UHGV virus genome: UHGV-1967114
Source: a virus
Direction: 5' to 3' (one strand)
DNA: 35,477 nucleotides
In this document: positions 435 through 34,204 of the stretch, piece by piece
How positions within the stretch are numbered: the stretch's first letter is position 1
How the letters are laid out: each line of letters opens with the position of its first letter
The notes under the pieces: generated by a model
The model's database searches: none
What the model was told of the DNA's origin: nothing
The model's input: the letters and a program-made list of their open reading frames with translations, nothing else
Translations under genes and position numbers: made by a program

Positions 435-1229
435 TCATTTTTTCTCTACACAAGAATATTTCCATTCGATTTCCTTTCCGGTACGGTTGTCAACATAAAT
501 ATGATGATAGTCCAGTGTTCTTACATCATCAACCATCTTATCACCGGAATATGTTTTTCCGTGTTGTGCGTATAACTCTACACCAGTTTTTGTAGTTTTT
601 GACATGAATCCATCAGCGTCAATATTCATTTCCACTACAACTGGGGGGTGCATCGTTCCAGAAATTAGAAGTTTTGCCTTGTCTTTGTTTTTATCGATTA
701 CAATTTTTGTGTTTTCTTTCACTATATCACGATCTTCTACACTCAGTCCGTCAATTGTGGTTATCTTAACTACTTTCGGACAAATATATACGAAGTTGCT
801 ATTTGGGGACTTTTCCAGAACAACTTGTTTCTCTTTGGTTTTTAGAGTTTCTACTGCCTTCGGTTGTTCTTCTTCAACCTTCGCAGAAGTCTCTGAATCG
901 CTTTCTGACGCGGTTTCTTCTTTAGATAATACATCCATCAAGTTTTGGATTTGAGCGTTGTATACAGCCTCCAGTGGCTGAATCTGCCCGATATTGATCA
1001 TTGTATCACGAACAGTTTTATTCCAGTTGCGTTGCTCTTGTTTAAGCGACGGATCAATCTTAACAGCCTTAACATATACTTCATGAAGTTTAGAGTCCAG
1101 TGCGGAGATTGACTCATTAGCACAAATAAACTTCTCTGATTTGGTAGTAGCTTTAGTGCAATCGAAGGATGCAGCATTAGCACCGAATGCAGTAGCAGAA
1201 AGAACGATAGCAGCGATAATGTTTTTCAT
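435..1229 (-). CDS. Secreted protein with N-terminal LprI/DUF1311-like domain (signal peptide MKNIIAAIVLSATAFGANA) and C-terminal Cys-containing domain; probable moron
   Basis: Signal peptide; motif C-x(n)-EKFIC...LD..L...Y....QR.W...RD typical of DUF1311; RBS AGAGG upstream of ATG on minus strand. Confidence 0.6.
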   Translation of the reverse strand: MKNIIAAIVLSATAFGANAASFDCTKATTKSEKFICANESISALDSKLHEVYVKAVKIDPSLKQEQRNWNKTVRDTMINIGQIQPLEAVYNAQIQNLMDVLSKEETASESDSETSAKVEEEQPKAVETLKTKEKQVVLEKSPNSNFVYICPKVVKITTIDGLSVEDRDIVKENTKIVIDKNKDKAKLLISGTMHPPVVVEMNIDADGFMSKTTKTGVELYAQHGKTYSGDKMVDDVRTLDYHHIYVDNRTGKEIEWKYSCVEKK

Positions 1230-1587: not shown

Positions 1588-2142
1588 ATGAAAGAAGAAT
1601 TAACCCTTACAGAAATTTCCCGTTTATATGGCTATACATTGAATGGTGGCGGTAAGCGATGGTTAGAAAGGGGATTGCCATTTAACACCAATACCCGCCG
1701 CGTGCCAGCCAAAGAAGGAACAGAATGGGTCTTGAAAAATATTATCAACCCGCTTAAACAAACTTCTATCAAAGAACAAATCGACGTAGAGAAATTACGC
1801 CGTGAACGTGCTTTGGCAGATGCAGCCGAACGAGAGAACCAGGAAAAAATGAATCTCCTGATTCCTGTCGGTTATGTAGAACAGGAACTAGCGGAATACT
1901 GCGGGAAAGTGAAACAGACTATTTTGCAGATTTGTACGATCGATGCCCTAGAAATTTTAGAATCCGCCACTGATCAGAAAACATTGAAGAATAAGCTAAG
2001 GGAGATCATCGAACGTCGTTTAAATGAAGTAGGGGACTTGTTCGAAAATGCAGATTTGGGAGAAGACGAGGAAGAAGAATTAGCATTAATGGATGAACCG
2101 GAACAAGAACCAGAAGAAGACGATGAATTTGATGTGTCTTAA
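1588..2142 (+). CDS. Nu1-like DNA-packaging protein / terminase small subunit candidate (N-terminal HTH, GGGK motif, EKLRRE, acidic C-terminus)
   Basis: Pattern resembles lambda Nu1 N-terminus (HTH...GGGK...EKLRRE); strong RBS GGAGG 9 nt upstream; note it is not adjacent to the large subunit. Confidence 0.5.
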   Translation: MKEELTLTEISRLYGYTLNGGGKRWLERGLPFNTNTRRVPAKEGTEWVLKNIINPLKQTSIKEQIDVEKLRRERALADAAERENQEKMNLLIPVGYVEQELAEYCGKVKQTILQICTIDALEILESATDQKTLKNKLREIIERRLNEVGDLFENADLGEDEEEELALMDEPEQEPEEDDEFDVS

Positions 2143-3906: not shown

Positions 3907-4089
3907 TCAGTAAACCTCTGCGGTTATCTTTACTTTAATGTCATACTTCTTTAAGAGTTTGTGGAAGGTTGATTGATCAATACCTTCACCTTTAAACCAT
4001 TCACCAATCACTACATCAGGCGTCAGTTCAAAATAACGCTTTGCCATTTCTAAAACGATTTCACGAGTGAACTTAACAGGTCGTGCCAT
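3907..4089 (-). CDS. Small putative DNA-binding protein (60 aa), member of a 3-gene paralog family sharing motif F.RE...[FY]..LKKY.IKV
   Basis: Strong RBS AGGAGG 8 nt upstream; shared motif with 7207..7467 and both halves of 7470..8045. Confidence 0.55.
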   Translation of the reverse strand: MARPVKFTREIVLEMAKRYFELTPDVVIGEWFKGEGIDQSTFHKLLKKYDIKVKITAEVY

Positions 4090-4124
4090 CTTGAATCCTC
4101 CTAAATCTGGATTAATTATTTCTT

Positions 4125-4147
4125 AAAAAAAAGAGCGTTAACCGCTC
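4125..4147 (-). terminator. Possible leader terminator/attenuator upstream of 3907..4089 (minus strand GAGCG-GTTAA-CGCTC + T8)
   Basis: Short 5-bp stem but followed by 8 consecutive T on minus strand, located between candidate promoter and the gene RBS. Confidence 0.3.
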
Positions 4148-4606
4148 ATTGTTATTTATACGGGGATTGTTTTTTAATTTTTCAACCCCTCACATTTATC
4201 TCTTATATATGTATTTATAACAGAGATATGTTAAAATGTTATTCAGATGTTATCAGGCGTGTTAAATGTGTTAAACCACAGCACGAATTGCTAAAGCGAA
4301 GAACGCGATTTAACCAAATTGATGTATATTTAATCAATTTAGAAAAATGCATAGCACTTTTTGCTAAAGCGGTGAGTATTAATTGAGCTATGAATTGTAA
4401 AGATTTGTTACAGGATTTTCTCTCAGATCCAAACCTTAACAGACATATAACAATTTAACAGGATAATAACAATAGGAAGGAAAATCGGTAAATTTTTACT
4501 TTCAATACAAATATTATAACATATTTATCTCGAATTGTCAATTATACCACTGTTCCTACACAGTGTCAACAAAGGACTTTCAAACCTACACTAGCCCTAC
4601 ACTATG

Positions 4607-4785
4607 AAAATTGCCCCTGAACCAAAATCCCCTAGATTTCACATCCCATTTTTGCCCCTGAAACCCACTATTTTTGCCCCTGAAATTCTGGGAAACAGTG
4701 ATTTTGCCCCTCATTTTTGCCCCTGAAATGCCAATAATTGCCCCTGAAAATCTAATTTTTGCCCCTGAAATTTGCCCCCGAAAAG
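4607..4785 (+). repeat. Array of 8 direct repeats, consensus TTTTTGCCCCTGAAA, spacing 13-41 bp, in a 1.37-kb non-coding region; candidate iterons / protein-binding array
   Basis: Copies at about 4611, 4652, 4674, 4704(variant CTCA), 4717, 4738, 4759, 4772(variant CCCCCGA), all same orientation. Confidence 0.8.
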
Positions 4786-5458
4786 GATTGGTAAGAAAAA
4801 CTCTTTATAAAACATTAAGTTAGTGAGGGCAAAAACGGGGAATTGGGCGTGCATAGATATTATATAACACATTCGCTACGCTCATGTGTAAAACCAAAAA
4901 CAACAAATAACCAAAAAGATATTAGGAGGGCGTAGCCCGACTGCGCGAAGCGCTAACCAATTACTTCTAGTAACACTAATTTAAACTAGATGATACTAGA
5001 TGGTCTTAGAAGGAATTAACTAGTTTGCTCGCTCGCTTCGCTCACTCTCAAACGTCTGCGACGCCACTGCGTGGCATCGAGAATCACTTCTGAAAGGATT
5101 TTCTTGAAAGGGATTTTAAACTAGTTACTAACTGATTCTAGTAAACGAACGAAGTGAGTAACAATCACTTTCTAGAAAGGTATTGGTATCCCTTCGGGAT
5201 TGCAACCTTCGGTTGCTAAATTTCTTCCTGATTATTATTTCTTCAAAAGAAAGATTCTTATATTCTAAAGATACTTCTTCGTTTTGGTGATGATTTAATC
5301 AAAATCTATGAAGGAGGGCTTTAGCCCGACTGAATCCAATCACCTTTCAAGTACAGACCAGTTTTGGACTCTACCAGATCACTCTTTTCATAATAACAAG
5401 AATTTTCTCTTTATAAATAATATTAGATTGATTCACTTTCTTTTAGAGGATTTCCACT

Positions 5459-5926
5459 ATGAACCATAAAATGACTACCACTACTCCTTTTATCCTTCTG
5501 GGTCTGGATTCTGATAGCTTCCACAATGACAAGTTAATGAAGATGTTCCGTGAACGTGGTTATAACATCCTTTTCAACTCTGATGAATCCCATTTCTCTA
5601 GTGCATGGTATGCGTTTTGCCGTAATAAGAAGCCGACCATTGTTGTTAACGTCTTCACCGATGAAGAACGCTTAAAGTACCAGAATCTACCAGCAATTAT
5701 TGTTCGTGATGATCTGCCGTTTCAAGTCCGTTCCGGTGACATTGATCTGGGTAGCTTCGTTACTGTCTATGAACTGGATGAAGCAATGTTTAACTACGGT
5801 AAAGAAACCGCTCAGGAAGCCCCAGAAGAAGATGAACAAGACGAAGATGACGACGACTACGCACCAATCTGTTTTTCTTCTCAGAATGGCTTCTACGGTT
5901 ACGACGAAGGCTTAGATATGCTGTAA
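5459..5926 (+). CDS. Hypothetical early protein with highly acidic C-terminus (EEDEQDEDDDDY)
   Basis: 155-aa ORF, RBS AGAGGA; acidic tail. Confidence 0.6.
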   Translation: MNHKMTTTTPFILLGLDSDSFHNDKLMKMFRERGYNILFNSDESHFSSAWYAFCRNKKPTIVVNVFTDEERLKYQNLPAIIVRDDLPFQVRSGDIDLGSFVTVYELDEAMFNYGKETAQEAPEEDEQDEDDDDYAPICFSSQNGFYGYDEGLDML

Positions 5927-5948
5927 GTTAGGTCAACCCTTTGGTGTC

Positions 5949-5990
5949 TTGTCAAGGGGTATTGACAAAAATTTCTAACTTTTTTATGAT
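5949..5990 (+). promoter_or_regulatory. Sigma70-like promoter (TTGACA 5962-5967, 17-bp spacer, TATGAT 5985-5990) overlapped by inverted repeat TTGTCAA-N6-TTGACAA (5949-5968); candidate operator
   Basis: Near-consensus -35/-10 with optimal spacing; palindromic half-sites; third TTGACAA copy at 5999-6005. Confidence 0.5.
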
Positions 5991-6048
5991 TATCGCACTT
6001 GACAACTATGAATCTATTTGACCTAGATTTGTAAATGGAATGTTAATT

Positions 6049-6195
6049 ATGAACGCTACTAAGAAAATTGATGGACGCAAAAACCCGAACCGCAAACCGT
6101 GGACCCCAAACCTGAATTTCTCAATGGTTGACTTCCATGAACGCCAGCGTCGCATTCAAGAAGAAATTGATCGCGCGATTGCTGAATCTAAATGA
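6049..6195 (+). CDS. Small basic protein (48 aa)
   Basis: ATG downstream of promoter at 5962-5990; basic composition; below ORF-track cutoff. Confidence 0.3.
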   Translation: MNATKKIDGRKNPNRKPWTPNLNFSMVDFHERQRRIQEEIDRAIAESK

Positions 6196-6284
6196 GATAA
6201 AAATTTCTTTATAAATAAAATTGTTCCGGTAGTGATGCCGGAACTAGGAGGATCATCACTAAACCGTTTAAGGGGGATTTTACT

Positions 6285-7127
6285 ATGAATACTGTTACTA
6301 CTATGAATACTGCTATTAAACCTGCTTCCGTGTCTCTGGTTGTTGATAACACCAAACCGCTGACCATGTCTACTTTGCAGATCGCGGAATTAACCGGAAA
6401 GAATCATAAAGATGTTATGCGTGATTTTCGTAATATGGTTGATTCACTTGAAAAGGGTAGCAAACTGGTCGGAGGAGATGAGCGCAATTTTGCGCCCATC
6501 GGTTTTTATAAAGAAACGACTTATAAAGATTCTCTGAATCGTAATAAACCGATGTATGAACTGGATGAAGATCTCTGTAATACTCTGGTTATGGGATACG
6601 ATGCACCGCTTCGCTTCAAAATTGCTAAAGAATGGCGTTTGATGAAAGAAGGTAAAGCTAATGTTCCGGTTAATCCATATGAACACTTTGAAGAAACCGA
6701 TTGGATCGAACTGGCATTAGAGAAAACCCGCGAAAACAAACGTCTGGTTGAATTGCATGTTCGTAAAGCTATCGACACACACAGTCTTAGCCGCTTATTA
6801 GGCGAAAAACGAGGCTCTACGAAGGTACAAATGATTCTGAAAGGTTTATGTGCTGCTGGTGTTCTTGAGCGTCGTCTGGATGATTCTGGTAAGCCTAAAG
6901 GCTATGATCTGCTTCCTCCTGGCTATATGTTCGCTCGTATGTCGGCACACGGTCAGATCGAGTTCACTGCTGATGCTATCCCGCATCTCGTAAAACTCGG
7001 ATTGCTTGAAGAAGAAAAGGCCGCAACTTTGAAATTGCCACAGCCGAATAACTCACGAGCAATCGTCAATAATACTGCTTTGCTGATTCGTCAGAATGCT
7101 GGATCACTGGAACACTTCGGACTGTAA
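6285..7127 (+). CDS. Rha-family phage regulatory protein / antirepressor-like (N-terminal Rha domain, C-terminal Ant-like domain)
   Basis: N-terminal motif LQIAELTGKNHKDVMRDFRNMVDSLE...LVMGYD typical of Phage_pRha domain (recollection). Confidence 0.65.
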   Translation: MNTVTTMNTAIKPASVSLVVDNTKPLTMSTLQIAELTGKNHKDVMRDFRNMVDSLEKGSKLVGGDERNFAPIGFYKETTYKDSLNRNKPMYELDEDLCNTLVMGYDAPLRFKIAKEWRLMKEGKANVPVNPYEHFEETDWIELALEKTRENKRLVELHVRKAIDTHSLSRLLGEKRGSTKVQMILKGLCAAGVLERRLDDSGKPKGYDLLPPGYMFARMSAHGQIEFTADAIPHLVKLGLLEEEKAATLKLPQPNNSRAIVNNTALLIRQNAGSLEHFGL

Positions 7128-7135
7128 TAATTTTT

Positions 7136-7164
7136 GCCCCTGAATTTCAGGGGCTTTTTGTTTT
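7136..7164 (+). terminator. Intrinsic terminator built from one copy of the TTTTTGCCCCTGAA motif paired with its inverted partner (GCCCCTG-AATTT-CAGGGGC + T-run)
   Basis: 7-bp GC stem, 5-nt loop, TTTTTGTTTT immediately downstream of stop at 7127. Confidence 0.65.
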
Positions 7165-7172
7165 CTATAGGT

Positions 7173-7198
7173 ATAAAAAAGCCACTCCGAAGAGTGGC
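7173..7198 (-). terminator. Intrinsic terminator for the minus-strand operon (GCCACTC-CGAA-GAGTGGC, A-run on plus = T-run on minus)
   Basis: Perfect 7-bp stem and tetraloop 9 nt downstream of stop of 7207..7467. Confidence 0.6.
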
Positions 7199-7206
7199 AA
7201 TGAGAA

Positions 7207-7467
7207 TCAAACTCCGTTGATTGGTACAACCTCTCCACCGTCTACACGTATAAAGAACTCGACATTAAGTTTCTTCATACTTTTATAAAACTGGGCGGTG
7301 GAGATGCCCAGATCGTTTAATACTTTCTCTCTGCTTTCTTTACCCTTGCCAGCTTTGTAAAACTCGTAGCAAATGTATGCCAGTTGTTCACGATTAAAAC
7401 GGGCAGGACGACCGCGAGTAGCTTTAGTAGTCATAGTCATTTTCTCCAAATTAAAGTGAATGTTCAC
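7207..7467 (-). CDS. Small putative DNA-binding protein (86 aa), paralog of 3907..4089
   Basis: Shared motif ...FYKSMKKLNVEFFIRVDGGE.. with the C-terminal half of 7470..8045. Confidence 0.55.
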   Translation of the reverse strand: MNIHFNLEKMTMTTKATRGRPARFNREQLAYICYEFYKAGKGKESREKVLNDLGISTAQFYKSMKKLNVEFFIRVDGGEVVPINGV

Positions 7468-7469
7468 CT

Positions 7470-8045
7470 TTATTTAGAGGACTTAGATTTTATAGGAAAA
7501 AGTTCTCCATCGTCAACTGACATAAAGAACTCAACCTTAATCCCGTACTTCTTCAACCGTGAATAATATGTACCCCGACTTATATCAACCTTGCGAAGCA
7601 CTTCAAAGAAGGACTTAGGATCGTTGTAATAGTGGCTGTACTTCACGTTAGCGAGTTCAACGAATAGTTCTCTTGTATCACCATAGTCTTTCTTAAAAGC
7701 CACGTTACGATAGCGTGTAATGGCATGATTCAATCTCTTCTGTTTAAGCACTTCCCTGATCGGTGTCCACTGCAACCGATAGATAGGACCGTCATCTACT
7801 CGATAGAATCGCTTAATGTCAAAATCAAACCACTCACGGACTCGCTGAAACTCTGTCTGTGATGTGCGATGCTTCTTAAAGAAGTTATGAATATCGGTAT
7901 ACCCATTATCACGATACAACTCGATTAAAATCTGTTTAGCTTCCTCACGACTAAAGCCAGATGTTGTGTAGTCGGTCTTTAAGTGCTTATGTTTTACTGG
8001 CAAACGATATTCATGATCGGTACAAGACAAGACAAGACAAGACAA
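7470..8045 (-). CDS. Protein with tandem duplication of the same HTH-like module (191 aa); start codon uncertain (only TTG candidates, inside the pentanucleotide repeat)
   Basis: Two internal copies of the family motif ending VDDG; no in-frame ATG near 5' end. Confidence 0.45.
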   Translation of the reverse strand: MSCLVLSCTDHEYRLPVKHKHLKTDYTTSGFSREEAKQILIELYRDNGYTDIHNFFKKHRTSQTEFQRVREWFDFDIKRFYRVDDGPIYRLQWTPIREVLKQKRLNHAITRYRNVAFKKDYGDTRELFVELANVKYSHYYNDPKSFFEVLRKVDISRGTYYSRLKKYGIKVEFFMSVDDGELFPIKSKSSK

Positions 8046-8056
8046 GACAAGACAAG
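8022..8056. repeat. Pentanucleotide microsatellite (ACAAG)x7 (CTTGT on minus strand)
   Basis: Seven perfect tandem units read directly from the sequence. Confidence 0.9.
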
Positions 8057-31779: not shown

Positions 31780-32052
31780 CTATGATTTATTTTCTTGTTC
31801 TATGAAAATCTTTCTCACCTCATCAGAATAAATGTCTAGTGATTCCTCATAACATTTTCTGTATTCACCGTAATTACTGGTGGTCTTTTGACATAGCAAT
31901 TTCAATGTTTTATGTGCTCCATCAATGAAAGCATCTTCTCTATAGGTTAGCGGTCTACGCATTTCTTGGTCTACGGTTGCCAATGCCAGGCAAGAATTCA
32001 TAGATAAAATCAAACCTAAAATCTTAATCATCTTCATTAGCTTAAATTCCAA
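31780..32052 (-). CDS. Small secreted protein (signal peptide MKMIKILGLILSMNSCLALA), Cys-containing
   Basis: Hydrophobic N-terminus with ALA cleavage-like site; overlaps 3' end of recombinase gene. Confidence 0.5.
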   Translation of the reverse strand: MEFKLMKMIKILGLILSMNSCLALATVDQEMRRPLTYREDAFIDGAHKTLKLLCQKTTSNYGEYRKCYEESLDIYSDEVRKIFIEQENKS

Positions 32053-33721
32053 ATTCCTGTAATGGACCTGGTATTTCTTCTTCTGGTTTCCAGTTCTTAT
32101 CTGTCAGCATGTCTAAACATGGATGCAGAACAAGCCCGTTACTCTCCAGAATCTGCCTATCATTGATAGTCTTCAAATCAATGAAGATCCGGCCTTTCCT
32201 CGGTCCTCTTGAATTTTCTATTACAACTCTCTGGGTCTTGCCATCGATGTATTCCAATACAAACAAGTTTTTGTACTTGTCAATCCTGCTACACCCGATC
32301 CGTTTTAGAGCTTGCTTAATCTTAAACCGGACCTTAATGCGATCCTCGTTGTAAACATCTTCTAAATCAAATTCTGCGAGCTTCTCCCAGCCTTGAGAGT
32401 CAACAGAATACATTTCCTCTTCTGCCATCTTAATTTGATTGTAGAGTGTTTCACGCTCGCTATTGAGGGTAGTAATCTGATCGGCTAGCTCCTTCGTTGC
32501 TCCTGTCATAGCAGAAAGGGTAATCAGGTTATCAATCTTGCGTGATATTTCATCAATCTGTACTTTCAAAGCCGGAACCGGATTAGCCTTATCTTCAGCA
32601 ATCCAGATTTTATCAGCCAGCAATTGCAATACAGCTTTCTCTAATTGGTCGCCGCGAAAACTCCAGTTTGTATGCACACATTCAATACGACTAGAGCGCA
32701 TTGCATCGCATGAATAACGATATTGGTTAGGCCGTCTGTTTGTTCCTTTCACCTTAACCATAGCGGAACCGCAATGTTCACATTTCAATAGACCAACACC
32801 ACTAAGCAAGGGAATAGGTTTAACTTCTTCTTTGTCTCCAAAGTTACATGCTCTAACACCAATGCTTTTCTTAAGGTGATAAAACTCAGCGTCATCTAGC
32901 ACACGAGGATAATAATCCTTTAACTCATACTTAACGCCATCTACAGAGATTTCCTTGATACCAATCAAAGCGCGGGTATGGAACAACCTTTCAATCATTG
33001 CCCGTGACCAGTTTGAATGCCTCTTGTGACTTGCGGCTGGTGGTGGTGTGTATGTCGCGTTAAGGTGATCCAGTATCTCGGCGGTTGACCGTCCATTCCT
33101 GCGTAATTCCACAACTTCCTGAACAATAGGGAAGAAGACCGGATGAGGAAGCACATAACCAGATGTGGTATCAGTCCACCACATATTCTTTCCAATTTCC
33201 TCGATTGCAACAGCCGGATTTTGTGGATTTTCTTGATGAGCTTTAATCTTAATCAGTGCGCTTGAGTTAGTACGATTGCGCTTAGTCTGGCTTTCCTCAT
33301 TACCACGGATGAATAAAAGGATGGAGAACATCAGGTCCATCGGGTTAGCGGTAACAGTATCCAGCGAGTAGATCTTGTTATCCATGCCAGTAACAATGGT
33401 TATCCCCCTACGGATGATTGAAAGGAATAACTCCTGCGCACTGACAATATCGGCACGGGATAAACGGTCCAAGTTTTCGATGAATAGCCAGCTACCAACA
33501 GGAACGGATCTACCTATTGCATCAAGGAAACGAGATAGCGCCCCTGTTTTGGAGTTAGCACCCTTAAACGCAGATACACCCAGATCCTGATAATCATTTA
33601 CCAGTTCAAGGTCATACTTTACCGCAATCTCTCTAGCCATCCTGATTTGTCGTTCATAACTCGAACCATCATTCTGACGCATAGACGAGAAGCGAATATA
33701 CGAATACAGTTTAGTTTTCAT
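32042..33721 (-). CDS. Large serine recombinase (probable prophage integrase); start taken at ATG 33721
   Basis: N-terminal resolvase-type motif YIRFSSMRQ (catalytic Ser), central recombinase region, zinc-ribbon CEHCGSAMVKV...YRYSCD...IECVH; 559 aa. Confidence 0.85.
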   Translation of the reverse strand: MKTKLYSYIRFSSMRQNDGSSYERQIRMAREIAVKYDLELVNDYQDLGVSAFKGANSKTGALSRFLDAIGRSVPVGSWLFIENLDRLSRADIVSAQELFLSIIRRGITIVTGMDNKIYSLDTVTANPMDLMFSILLFIRGNEESQTKRNRTNSSALIKIKAHQENPQNPAVAIEEIGKNMWWTDTTSGYVLPHPVFFPIVQEVVELRRNGRSTAEILDHLNATYTPPPAASHKRHSNWSRAMIERLFHTRALIGIKEISVDGVKYELKDYYPRVLDDAEFYHLKKSIGVRACNFGDKEEVKPIPLLSGVGLLKCEHCGSAMVKVKGTNRRPNQYRYSCDAMRSSRIECVHTNWSFRGDQLEKAVLQLLADKIWIAEDKANPVPALKVQIDEISRKIDNLITLSAMTGATKELADQITTLNSERETLYNQIKMAEEEMYSVDSQGWEKLAEFDLEDVYNEDRIKVRFKIKQALKRIGCSRIDKYKNLFVLEYIDGKTQRVVIENSRGPRKGRIFIDLKTINDRQILESNGLVLHPCLDMLTDKNWKPEEEIPGPLQEFGI

Positions 33722-33730
33722 ACCATTTCC

Positions 33731-33770
33731 AAACAAAAACGCCCCTACCGCGTATTATAACGATAGGGGC
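33731..33770 (-). terminator. Terminator-like hairpin between secreted-protein gene and recombinase gene (minus strand)
   Basis: GCCCCTA...TAGGGGC stem with 16-nt loop, followed on minus strand by GTTTTTGTTT. Confidence 0.45.
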
Positions 33771-33784
33771 TAGGTGATTAAAGA

Positions 33785-34204
33785 TTAAAGAATTTCACGG
33801 CAGCTAATCAGGGTATAAGATGTATCACCTTTTTTAACATCAAATATAGGAGCGCCATCTACAGAATGCAGATATTTGATGTAAGACTTACCATCTTCGG
33901 AACCATAATATTCTTCTTTCTCGTTCTTATCTTCTTTCAGTTTCGGGCTTTTGATTGTTTTATCAAATACCGGATCGTTGAAAGCAAATTGACTATTATC
34001 ATCATTCACTCGAACCTTTACACCGATAAAACCACGGTATTTGCCAGACGGCGCATGATAATAACGGTCGCCATCACTCAGGTAGCGTGTATCATCTCCT
34101 TTATATTCGAAGTAGGAATTGCACACATAATAGGTATAGGTATTAGCATTTGCAGCACCAACCAAACCCAGAGCAAGAACGATACCAGCGATAATCTTTT
34201 TCAT
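33785..34204 (-). CDS. Secreted protein (signal peptide ...LVGAANA), two Cys; possibly related to C-terminal domain of 435..1229
   Basis: Signal peptide; Y-V-C near N-terminus and I-S-C near C-terminus as in the 264-aa protein (FVYIC...KYSC). Confidence 0.6.
   Translation of the reverse strand: MKKIIAGIVLALGLVGAANANTYTYYVCNSYFEYKGDDTRYLSDGDRYYHAPSGKYRGFIGVKVRVNDDNSQFAFNDPVFDKTIKSPKLKEDKNEKEEYYGSEDGKSYIKYLHSVDGAPIFDVKKGDTSYTLISCREIL

What the first reader, a model, noticed from the sequence alone, without database searches (positions are those of the whole stretch)
5459..6195. Early acidic protein and a palindromic operator-like promoter controlling a small basic protein and the Rha-like gene
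ORF 5459..5926 ends in a highly acidic tail (EEDEQDEDDDDY), a feature of DNA-mimic anti-restriction proteins. Immediately downstream, a near-consensus sigma70 promoter (TTGACA-17-TATGAT) is overlapped by TTGTCAA-N6-TTGACAA, with a third TTGACAA 30 bp downstream, ahead of a 48-aa basic ORF and the Rha-like gene. This may be the immunity switch of the phage.
Basis: inference. Interest (0 to 1): 0.4.

Follow-up and report, generated by a model that had tools for sequence, protein, structure and literature searches.

The report
Conserved prophage early promoter with operator-like repeats
A near-consensus bacterial promoter, surrounded by five conserved TTGAC(A/C) repeats, lies in an uncharacterised E. 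coli prophage and most likely switches on a swappable small gene plus a Rha/antirepressor-like regulator; the acidic protein upstream is a real orphan gene, but nothing supports it being a DNA mimic.

Summary
The sequence features are real and sit at the stated coordinates. The window is an E. coli prophage integrated in hicB, 100% identical to strain PI7. Relatives occur in about 1% of complete E. coli genomes and none in the phage collection.

**Promoter.** TTGACA-17-TATGAT (5962-5990) is one of only three matches of at least 11/12 in 35 kb. It sits inside a cluster of five TTGAC[AC] hexamers that never arose in 1000 simulations. In 40 distinct relatives these hexamers are almost invariant while the spacers vary. 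Salmonella-type relatives, whose flanking protein is only about 40% identical, keep them too. This is a selected, probably regulated, early promoter.

**Downstream.** It drives a cassette slot holding three unrelated small genes in different relatives, then a Rha/Ant-like gene.

**Immunity switch.** This reading is only partly supported. No repressor gene is adjacent, and the region does not vary with the control-region type. A better candidate switch lies at 4.1-4.6 kb.

**DNA mimic.** This reading is not supported. The 155-aa protein has an α/β domain with net charge −3, a disordered acidic linker and a conserved C-terminal peptide. It has no homology or fold match to Ocr or ArdA.

Overall this is an ordinary kind of element in an unstudied phage lineage, of modest interest.

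The parts
5393..5421 (+). Candidate weaker promoter of the 155-aa gene (ATAACA-17-AATAAT). Its -10 region TTATAAATAAT is conserved in relatives.
   Evidence: Scan hit at 9/12; conservation of the -10 block in 40 upstream sequences. Assignment as a promoter is inferred.
5459..5926 (+). Gene for the 155-aa orphan protein: alpha/beta domain (residues 1-115), disordered acidic linker (116-134), conserved C-terminal peptide (135-155).
   Evidence: ORF; RefSeq CDS; 79 homologues, all E. coli or Shigella; dN/dS 0.25; AF2 model; charge split; only 11 representatives among 1.84 billion proteins.
5931..5936 (-). GGTCAA, which is TTGACC on the minus strand; the outermost conserved hexamer.
   Evidence: Near-invariant in 40 distinct sequences; kept in the distant relatives L049-L052.
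5949..5955 (-). TTGTCAA, left arm of the inverted repeat (TTGACAA on the minus strand), at about -48 to -42 relative to the inferred start.
   Evidence: The spacing to the right arm is 6 nt in 35 and 7 nt in 5 of the 40 distinct sequences, and 7 nt in L049-L051.
5962..5990 (+). Sigma-70-type promoter ('P_rha'): -35 TTGACA(A) at 5962-5968, 17-bp spacer, -10 TATGAT at 5985-5990. Inferred transcription start is about 5996-5998.
   Evidence: 11/12 match. Both hexamers are near-invariant while the spacer sequence varies. Distant relatives have TTGACA-17-TAGCAT. The start site is inferred, not measured.
5999..6005 (+). Third TTGACAA, at about +2 to +9 of the inferred transcript.
   Evidence: Invariant apart from a change at its last base (the A at 6005) in 1 of 40 sequences; kept in L049-L052.
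6017..6036 (+). Conserved 5'-leader block ATTTGACCTAGATTTGTAAA, containing the fifth hexamer TTGACC (6018-6023), followed by the Shine-Dalgarno sequence.
   Evidence: The block is conserved in front of three unrelated downstream genes.
6049..6195 (+). 48-aa basic ORF (pI 10.15), one of at least three alternative cassettes in this slot.
   Evidence: RefSeq CDS. Homologues occur only in this prophage family. A 57-aa homologue in L049-L051 shares the helix VDFxERQRRxxExIDR (read). Alternative 110-aa and 59-aa genes occupy the slot in relatives.
6223..6244 (.). Conserved hairpin (GTTCCGG...CCGGAAC) between the cassette slot and the Rha ribosome-binding site. It forms the right boundary of the slot.
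   Evidence: Terminator-like on the minus strand; conservation 0.88. Its function was not tested.
6285..7127 (+). Rha-family (Ant-like) regulator gene, last gene of the operon.
   Evidence: Pfam PF09669, E = 5.7e-17. PHROG matches to anti-repressor Ant and Rha-like families. The N-terminal domain is swapped among at least 5 types in relatives.
7136..7154 (+). Intrinsic terminator ending the rightward early operon. A convergent terminator lies at 7181-7198 on the minus strand.
7470..8045 (-). p191, the most conserved neighbouring protein, with two helix-turn-helix-like modules. It is a candidate binder of the invariant hexamers (inferred). Its N-terminus is disrupted here by an (ACAAG)7 expansion.
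7207..7467 (-). p86, a single-module paralogue of p191 and a candidate regulator.
   Evidence: hhalign probability 92% to the second module of p191.
3907..4089 (-). p60, a single-module paralogue of p191, downstream of twin perfect-consensus promoters at 4569->4513 (minus strand). It is a candidate type-specific repressor (inferred).
   Evidence: hhalign probability 82%; promoters at 12/12; the adjacent region exists in two types.

Best explanation
The 122-bp gap between the 155-aa gene and the next gene holds a strong host-RNA-polymerase (sigma-70) promoter, called P_rha here. It heads a short rightward, lytic-orientation early operon: a swappable small-gene cassette, then a Rha/Ant-like regulator, then a terminator at 7136.

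Five conserved TTGAC(A/C) hexamers sit around and over the promoter. Two lie upstream in inverted orientation, one is the -35 itself, one lies at the transcription start and one in the leader.

The most likely mechanism is that these hexamers are binding sites for a conserved phage DNA-binding protein that keeps the promoter shut in the lysogen by occluding the -35 and the start site. The best candidates are the helix-turn-helix paralogues p191, p86 and p60, which are encoded on the opposite, lysogenic-orientation strand. Release of this repression would let the Rha/Ant-like protein drive lytic development.

Functionally this resembles the antirepressor promoter of the P22 immI region more than a lambda-type primary immunity switch.

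The 155-aa gene upstream has its own weaker promoter and probably reads through into the operon. Its product is a constrained orphan protein. Its acidic stretch is a flexible linker that presents a conserved C-terminal peptide to an unknown partner; it is not a folded DNA mimic.

Shown: the sequence features, their non-random clustering, their selective conservation, the gene content and the fold classes. Inferred: promoter activity, repression, the identity of the binder, and the roles of Rha and of the 155-aa protein.
For: **The promoter is real.**
- 11/12 match with a 17-bp spacer. It is one of only 3 matches of at least 11/12 in the window, all three in the 4.5-6.0 kb control region.
- The hexamers are near-invariant in 40 distinct sequences while the spacer sequence varies.
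- Distant relatives keep TTGACA-17-TAGCAT.

**There are extra selected elements.**
- Five TTGAC[AC] within 93 bp was reached in 0 of 1000 simulations.
- Element columns carry a mean of 0.26 minor alleles against 2.16 elsewhere in the gap (p = 2e-5; 0 of 108 circular shifts).
- The four non-promoter hexamers are as conserved as the -35 and -10.
- Intergenic pairwise identity is 0.93. Synonymous divergence is 0.30 in the adjacent tail-coding region and about 1.0 in the N-domain-coding region.
- GGTCAAC, TTGTCAA, the -35 and the start-site TTGACAA survive in relatives whose 155-aa homologue is only about 40% identical.

**The same vocabulary appears at a second promoter.** TGTCAAGG and TATTGACAA recur together, 9 bp apart, only at the leftward p60 promoter in type-2 relatives.

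**Candidate binders exist.**
- p191 is the most conserved neighbour at 86-94% identity.
- It is modelled as two tri-helical modules, each with a beta-hairpin.
- Its best structural matches are helix-turn-helix DNA binders.
- p86 and p60 are paralogous single modules.

**Operon layout.**
- The downstream slot holds three unrelated small genes.
- The Rha gene matches Ant/Rha families.
- Terminators follow.

**The 155-aa protein.**
Against: - No transcription data and no binding data exist, so repression is inference.
- The spacing between TTGTCAA and the -35 TTGACAA is 6 nt in most relatives but 7 nt in 5 of 40 and in L049-L051. A rigid dimeric repressor would not usually tolerate this.
- The inverted-repeat geometry at the second promoter (TTGACA-AC-TGTCAA) differs from that at P_rha.
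- TTGACA is the -35 consensus, so some conservation may reflect RNA polymerase contacts rather than a regulator.
- The whole 5800-6040 island has low synonymous divergence. Part of the conservation may therefore come from recombination or homogenisation at a module junction.
- p191 is N-terminally disrupted in this very prophage.
- The Rha DNA-binding domain is swapped among relatives, so autoregulation through it is unlikely, and its true role is unknown.
Confidence: 0.5

Rival explanations
1. The 155-aa protein is a DNA-mimic anti-restriction protein, and the palindromic promoter is the phage's primary immunity switch, possibly autoregulated by the small basic protein.
For: - The protein as a whole is acidic: net charge -18, pI 4.25.
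- It sits first in the rightward early cluster.
- An inverted repeat overlaps the -35.
- The small ORF is basic.
Against: - The charge is concentrated in a disordered 19-residue linker. The folded domain has net charge -3 and a generic alpha/beta fold.
- There is no hit to the Ocr or ArdA families, or to any defence or anti-defence model.
- The small-ORF slot holds unrelated genes in relatives while the operator-like sites stay invariant.
- No repressor gene is adjacent.
- The region does not vary with the control-region type, whereas 4090-4600 does.
Confidence: 0.07
2. The conserved inverted repeats act as nucleic-acid structure rather than as protein-binding sites. A long imperfect hairpin (about 5932-5966, extendable to 5927-5979 and followed by a T run) would end or stabilise the transcript of the 155-aa gene, and it happens to overlap the next promoter.
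For: - The read-through RNA 5927-6060 folds better than shuffles: -29.3 kcal/mol, z = -2.7.
- Variable loop length (6 or 7 nt) is easily tolerated by a hairpin.
- The two changes inside the short stem keep G-U pairing.
- CCCYTTG / CAAGGGG complementarity is kept in the distant relatives.
Against: - There is no significant covariation for either hairpin.
- Several relatives break stem pairs.
- The terminator scan did not call it.
- The T run is separated from the main stem by an 8-nt internal loop.
- The base stem is not conserved in L049-L051.
- It does not explain the conserved hexamers at 5999 and 6018, or the shared words at the p60 promoter.
Confidence: 0.15
3. P_rha is an unregulated (constitutive) strong promoter. 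The extra conserved sequence reflects RNA polymerase or upstream-element contacts, leader function, and homogenisation of a recombination junction between mosaic modules.
For: - The island 5800-6040 has 3-fold lower synonymous divergence than the rest of the gene.
- It lies exactly between two variable modules: the N-domain of the 155-aa protein and the cassette slot.
- All the repeats are variants of the -35 consensus.
Against: - Within the island, variation is concentrated in the spacers and avoids the hexamers.
- Conservation persists at much greater divergence.
- A near-consensus constitutive promoter driving an Ant/Rha-like gene in lytic orientation would be hard to reconcile with stable lysogeny (inference).
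Confidence: 0.18
4. The unit is an anti-defence operon of the acr-aca type. A strong promoter with inverted repeats drives variable small inhibitor genes, and the conserved downstream DNA-binding protein (Rha-like) shuts the promoter down after a burst of expression.
For: - The layout matches: a near-consensus promoter with an inverted repeat, a cassette slot holding three unrelated 48-110-aa genes, and a downstream regulator-family gene.
Against: - The small proteins match no PADLOC defence model; no anti-defence (Acr) library was available to search.
- The DNA-binding N-domain of the Rha-like protein is swapped among at least 5 types while the repeats stay invariant.
- No functional data exist.
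Confidence: 0.1

Closest known systems
P22 immI region (Pant-arc-ant, controlled by Mnt and Arc)
   Same: A strong promoter, overlapped by operator sequence, drives a small first gene followed by an antirepressor-class gene. It acts as a secondary control region separate from the main repressor locus. The layout of immI is as described in PMC8022706; details of the Arc and Mnt operators are from my own knowledge.
   Different: No ribbon-helix-helix signature was found in the first gene, and that gene is replaceable by unrelated genes. The operator-like repeats lie over and upstream of the -35 and at +1, not within the spacer. The downstream gene carries a Rha domain rather than the P22 Ant architecture. 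No divergent mnt-like gene is present.
Lambda-type immunity region (cI-OR-cro)
   Same: Repeated operator-like sites overlap a strong early promoter.
   Different: There is no adjacent divergent repressor gene. The flanking genes are co-directional. The sites are invariant across relatives instead of co-varying with an immunity type.
acr-aca anti-defence operons
   Same: A strong promoter with an inverted repeat, variable small genes, and a downstream DNA-binding regulator gene.
   Different: There is no evidence that the small proteins inhibit any defence. The regulator's DNA-binding domain is not conserved while the repeats are.
Ocr / ArdA DNA-mimic anti-restriction proteins
   Same: Low overall pI and an early-gene position.
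   Different: In those proteins the acidic residues decorate a folded surface. Here they form a disordered linker attached to a near-neutral alpha/beta domain. There is no sequence or fold similarity.
Acidic C-terminal tails with a hydrophobic tip (E. coli SSB ...DDDIPF, T7 gp2.5)
   Same: A disordered acidic stretch ends in a conserved aromatic or hydrophobic C-terminal peptide (...DDDDYAPICFSSQNGFYGYDEGLDML), and distant family members keep it. This comparison comes from memory and is a lead only.
   Different: There is no OB fold. The tail sequence is different, and no partner is known.

Membership tests
Sigma-70 promoter | -35 and -10 hexamers close to TTGACA/TATAAT with a 16-18 bp spacer | tested here: met
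   TTGACA-17-TATGAT, an 11/12 match.
Sigma-70 promoter | Hexamers and their spacing conserved in relatives while the spacer sequence drifts | tested here: met
   40 distinct sequences. Distant relatives have TTGACA-17-TAGCAT. The spacer is 16 nt in 4 of the 40 sequences.
Sigma-70 promoter | Transcription initiates 6-8 nt downstream of the -10 | not testable with these tools
   Needs 5'-end mapping.
Repressor operator / primary immunity switch (lambda-like) | Repeated sites overlapping the promoter core | tested here: met
   Five TTGAC[AC] hexamers, including the -35 and +1.
Repressor operator / primary immunity switch (lambda-like) | Adjacent, usually divergent, repressor gene | tested here: not met
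   The flanking genes are co-directional, and neither neighbour is a recognisable repressor.
Repressor operator / primary immunity switch (lambda-like) | Operators co-vary with immunity type among relatives | tested here: not met
   The region is invariant across relatives that differ in the 4090-4600 region type and in iteron type.
Repressor operator / primary immunity switch (lambda-like) | Fixed half-site spacing | tested here: inconclusive
   The spacing is 6 nt in 35 and 7 nt in 5 of the 40 distinct sequences, and 7 nt in L049-L051.
P22 immI-type antirepressor operon | Strong promoter, then a small gene, then an antirepressor-class gene | tested here: met
   Layout. The Rha gene hits PHROG 'anti-repressor Ant' families at E = 1.5e-17.
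P22 immI-type antirepressor operon | The first gene encodes an Arc-like ribbon-helix-helix autorepressor | tested here: not met
   No Pfam or PHROG match. Unrelated genes replace it while the sites stay constant.
Rha family (Pfam PF09669) | Match to the Phage_pRha domain above the gathering score | tested here: met
   62.5 bits against a cut-off of 29.9, residues 28-121.
DNA-mimic anti-restriction proteins (Ocr, ArdA) | Sequence or fold homology to a known mimic | tested here: not met
DNA-mimic anti-restriction proteins (Ocr, ArdA) | Acidic residues arrayed on a folded surface | tested here: not met
   The folded domain has net charge -3. Twelve of the net -18 charges lie in residues 116-134, where pLDDT is below 50.
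DNA-mimic anti-restriction proteins (Ocr, ArdA) | Inhibits restriction enzymes | not testable with these tools
   Needs plating or biochemical assays.
acr-aca-type anti-defence operon | Variable small genes upstream of a conserved autoregulator that binds promoter inverted repeats | tested here: inconclusive
   A variable slot is present. The regulator's DNA-binding domain is itself variable. Binding could not be tested.

The most novel reading that the evidence does not exclude
The conserved promoter, its cassette slot and the Rha-like gene form an anti-defence or host-takeover locus of a new prophage lineage. In this reading the three interchangeable small proteins, and the 155-aa protein with its acidic linker and conserved C-terminal docking peptide, are previously unknown inhibitors of host systems. 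They would be expressed in a controlled burst under a new family of tandem helix-turn-helix regulators (p191/p86/p60) that recognise -35-like TTGACA hexamers.
Probability: 0.12. Interest if true: 0.6.

Novelty: new member of a known kind. Interest (0 to 1): 0.3.

Why it matters
This prophage lineage is found in about 1% of complete E. coli genomes and also in Salmonella and Proteus. It has no cultured relative, no recognisable CI-type repressor and no recognisable replication genes, so its lysis-lysogeny control is unknown. The conserved promoter and its hexamer array give a precise, testable entry point: a 110-bp fragment, six defined elements and three candidate binding proteins. The cassette slot and the orphan 155-aa protein are candidates for new host-interaction functions. 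The element itself, however, is of a familiar kind: a regulated phage early promoter.

Tried and rejected
- **Homology for the 155-aa protein.**
  - Pfam, PHROGs and PADLOC gave nothing significant.
  - A PDB profile search and tblastn against phage genomes found nothing.
  - The species-representative genome scan found no relative.
  - A profile search of 1.84 billion proteins returned only its own narrow family.
- **RNA-structure explanations.** Covariation counts for both the short palindrome hairpin and the long hairpin were uninformative, because there is too little variation. Rfam gave no credible hit.
- **A second promoter from the third TTGACAA.** It would need a 19-bp spacer to TAGATT, and it is not conserved in the distant relatives. 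Rejected by reading the alignments.
- **Rha as the binder of the iterons or of the invariant hexamers.** Rejected. Its N-domain types do not track iteron types, and identical Rha proteins occur with different iteron types.
- **The 48-aa protein as an Arc-like autoregulator.** Rejected, because unrelated genes occupy the slot and it has no wider homologues.
- **Host regulator sites, from memory.** LexA, CRP and FNR spacing does not fit. A 10/12 resemblance to a TyrR box (TGTAAA-N6-TTTACA) was noted but not tested, and I treat it as coincidence.
- **Literature searches** on Rha/antirepressor operators and on hicB-integrated prophages found nothing about this lineage.

Full report
**Context**

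The window is a prophage of Escherichia coli. The stretch 4090-7200 is 100% identical to the chromosome of strain PI7. RefSeq shows the element inserted in hicB, with only 'hypothetical protein' and 'Rha family transcriptional regulator' annotated in the region of interest.

A large serine recombinase gene lies at 32042-33736 on the minus strand. Terminase, portal, capsid, tail and lysis genes run rightward from 8186.

Relatives are present in 58 of 5426 complete E. coli genomes. No close relative exists in the phage collection: there is no DNA match, and the capsid protein is at most 46% identical to any deposited phage.

The local gene order is conserved in all relatives fetched:
- 313-aa gene (-), then 60-aa gene (-)
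- about 1.4 kb without genes
- 155-aa gene (+), then a 122-bp gap
- a small gene (+), then the Rha-like gene (+), then terminators
- two small genes (-), then terminase (+)

**Observation**

The acidic run lies at residues 123-134 and is followed by 21 further residues, so it is not a terminal tail.

Two more copies of the repeat were overlooked: GGTCAA at 5931-5936 and TTGACC at 6018-6023.

Taken alone, the heptamer TTGACAA is no more common in the window than chance (8 against 7.9). One 11/12 promoter match is also unremarkable (3 in the window against 1.3±1.2 in simulations). The clustering, however, is not random. Three TTGACAA within 57 bp arose in 1 of 1000 simulations, and five TTGAC[AC] within 93 bp arose in none. 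All three promoter matches of at least 11/12 in the 35-kb window lie in the 4.5-6.0 kb control region.

**Comparative evidence for the promoter and the repeats**

I collected 14 loci from complete E. coli genomes, 33 from IMG/VR and 4 distant ones.

The gap after the 155-aa gene yields 40 distinct sequences. Mean pairwise identity there is 0.93. The N-domain of the flanking gene has 72% amino-acid identity and a synonymous divergence near 1.0. Even the adjacent tail-coding segment has a synonymous divergence of 0.30.

Variation inside the gap is not uniform:
- The 39 columns of the six predefined elements (five hexamer or heptamer repeats plus the -10) carry on average 0.26 minor alleles.
- The other 70 columns carry 2.16 (Mann-Whitney p = 2e-5).
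- None of 108 circular shifts of the mask did as well.
- The four repeats that are not promoter hexamers are as conserved as the -35 and -10.

In Salmonella-type relatives the 155-aa homologue is only about 40% identical and most of the gap has diverged. GGTCAAC, TTGTCAA, TTGACAA-17-TAGCAT and the start-site TTGACAA are nevertheless all retained.

The words TGTCAAGG and TATTGACAA also recur together, 9 bp apart, at one other place: the leftward promoter of the 60-aa gene in one of the two variants of that region.

I conclude that the promoter is real and that the TTGAC(A/C) repeats are selected elements, most simply protein-binding sites.

Three caveats apply:
- The whole island 5800-6040 has reduced synonymous divergence, so junction homogenisation contributes to the conservation.
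- The distance between the two arms of the palindrome is 6 nt in most relatives but 7 nt in five and in the distant group.
- The repeats are variants of the -35 consensus, so RNA polymerase contacts could explain part of the signal.

**What the promoter drives**

The gene right after the conserved leader and ribosome-binding site differs between relatives. It is a 48-aa basic protein (57 aa in the distant group), a 110-aa acidic protein or a 59-aa basic protein, and these are unrelated to each other. The swap begins at the start codon and ends at a conserved hairpin before the Rha ribosome-binding site.

The small basic ORF is therefore a cassette, not the conserved regulator of conserved sites. 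It has no homologues outside this lineage.

The Rha-like protein matches Pfam Phage_pRha and the PHROG 'anti-repressor Ant' families. Its N-terminal DNA-binding domain is exchanged among at least five types, whereas the repeats do not change. Autoregulation through that domain is therefore unlikely.

Strong terminators follow at 7136-7154 (+) and 7181-7198 (-).

**Who might bind**

The 86-aa and 60-aa proteins are single-module paralogues. All three are encoded on the strand opposite to the lytic genes. The 60-aa gene lies downstream of two tandem perfect-consensus promoters.

These are the only candidates for phage-encoded regulators that I could identify. Assigning any of them to the repeats is inference.

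In this particular prophage, the N-terminus of the 191-aa protein is put out of frame by an expansion of an ACAAG repeat: 7 copies here, 2 in most relatives and 9 in one.

**Is it the immunity switch?**

The region lacks an adjacent repressor gene, lies between co-directional genes, and is invariant across relatives. The stretch 4090-4600, in contrast, is bounded by divergent genes, contains the strongest promoters in the window, and exists in at least two sequence types.

The more economical reading is that P_rha is a regulated target promoter, comparable to the antirepressor promoter of the P22 immI region (layout as summarised in PMC8022706), rather than the primary switch.

**The 155-aa protein**

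It is a genuine gene with dN/dS of 0.25, and it belongs to a very narrow family. All 79 close homologues are from E. coli or Shigella, and there are only 11 representatives among 1.84 billion proteins.

The model shows three parts:
- an alpha/beta sandwich at residues 1-115, with pLDDT about 85
- a disordered stretch from 116 to 155
- within that stretch, a final 21 residues that are the best-conserved part of the protein, retained even in 40%-identical members together with the preceding acidic run

The folded domain has net charge -3, and the 19-residue linker has net charge -12.

This is not the anatomy of Ocr or ArdA. It looks like a domain that presents a conserved C-terminal peptide on an acidic flexible linker. 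From memory this resembles SSB-type tails; the resemblance is a lead, not a test. Its partner and function remain unknown.

**Alternatives**

- *RNA or DNA hairpin.* A hairpin spanning the palindrome folds somewhat better than shuffles (z = -2.7). There is no covariation support, it is not a canonical terminator, and it does not explain the downstream repeats.
- *Constitutive promoter at a homogenised junction.* This explains the low silent-site divergence, but not the element-specific pattern or its persistence at depth.
- *acr-aca-like anti-defence operon.* This fits the layout, but it lacks any functional or homology support and conflicts with the variable Rha N-domain.

**Verdict**

The DNA-mimic reading is not supported, and the immunity-switch reading is at best partly right. 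The element is an ordinary kind of phage control region in an unstudied prophage lineage, so interest is modest.

Noticed in passing
window 4600-4790: An array of about eight iterons, TTTTGCCCCTGAAA, at 21-22 bp spacing. Relatives carry at least four alternative iteron cassettes at the same place: A GCCCCTGAA, B CCTACAC, C TCCCCG, D CCCCAAGATTCCA. The iteron type does not co-vary with the Rha N-domain type. The array may be a replication origin or a packaging or other specificity site; its binder is unknown. One further copy forms the terminator hairpin at 7130-7154.
   Followed up: partly
window 4513-4569 (minus strand): Two tandem, overlapping, perfect-consensus sigma-70 promoters (TTGACA-17-TATAAT, both with TG) point towards the 60-aa gene across a 420-nt leader. 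A CACTGT-N6-ACAGTG palindrome sits in the spacer of the first. This region exists in two sequence types among relatives and is a better candidate for the primary lysis-lysogeny switch.
   Followed up: partly
window 4900-5235 (+): A gene-free, conserved stretch that folds better than shuffles (z = -3.3) and ends in two tandem C(UUCG)G hairpins at 5188-5200 and 5202-5216. It may be a non-coding RNA. There is no Rfam match.
   Followed up: partly
window 4928-4943 and 5316-5332: A repeated hairpin, GGGC-loop-GCCC followed by GACTG. In relatives the loop and stem length vary (GGGCTTTAGCCC, GGGCTTTGCCC, GGCGAAGCC) while the pairing is kept.
   Followed up: no
window 8022-8056: A pentanucleotide repeat, (ACAAG)7, at the 5' end of the 191-aa gene. 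Most relatives have 2 copies and one has 9. The expansions put the conserved N-terminus (MLINQQQRDELELALSC) out of frame. This could be slipped-strand phase variation or decay of a putative regulator.
   Followed up: partly
window 6285-7127 and relatives: The Rha-like protein keeps a conserved 28-residue N-terminal leader and a moderately conserved C-terminal half, but its DNA-binding N-domain is swapped among at least five unrelated types. Some of these are not recognised as Rha by RefSeq.
   Followed up: partly
window 1588-2142 (+): A 184-aa protein with a weak match to the PHROG terminase small subunit (E = 6e-11). By eye it has a Nu1-like N-terminus and an acidic C-terminus. It lies 6 kb away from the large terminase gene, on the other side of the control region.
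   Followed up: no
window 4280-4296: The block GCACGAATTGCTAAAG in the leader of the 60-aa gene is invariant across both variants of an otherwise divergent region.
   Followed up: no
whole window: No recognisable CI/Cro-type repressor, replication initiator, helicase or recombination gene was found among the ORFs that were scanned against Pfam or PHROGs. The scan did not cover every ORF. The prophage has about 41% G+C against about 51% for E. coli (the host value is from memory).
   Followed up: partly
window 435-1229 (-) and 33785-34204 (-): Prophage-end genes in lysogenic orientation. One is a lysozyme-inhibitor LprI-family protein. The other is a 139-aa protein that, by eye, has a signal-peptide-like N-terminus. 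Both are likely lysogenic-conversion cargo.
   Followed up: no
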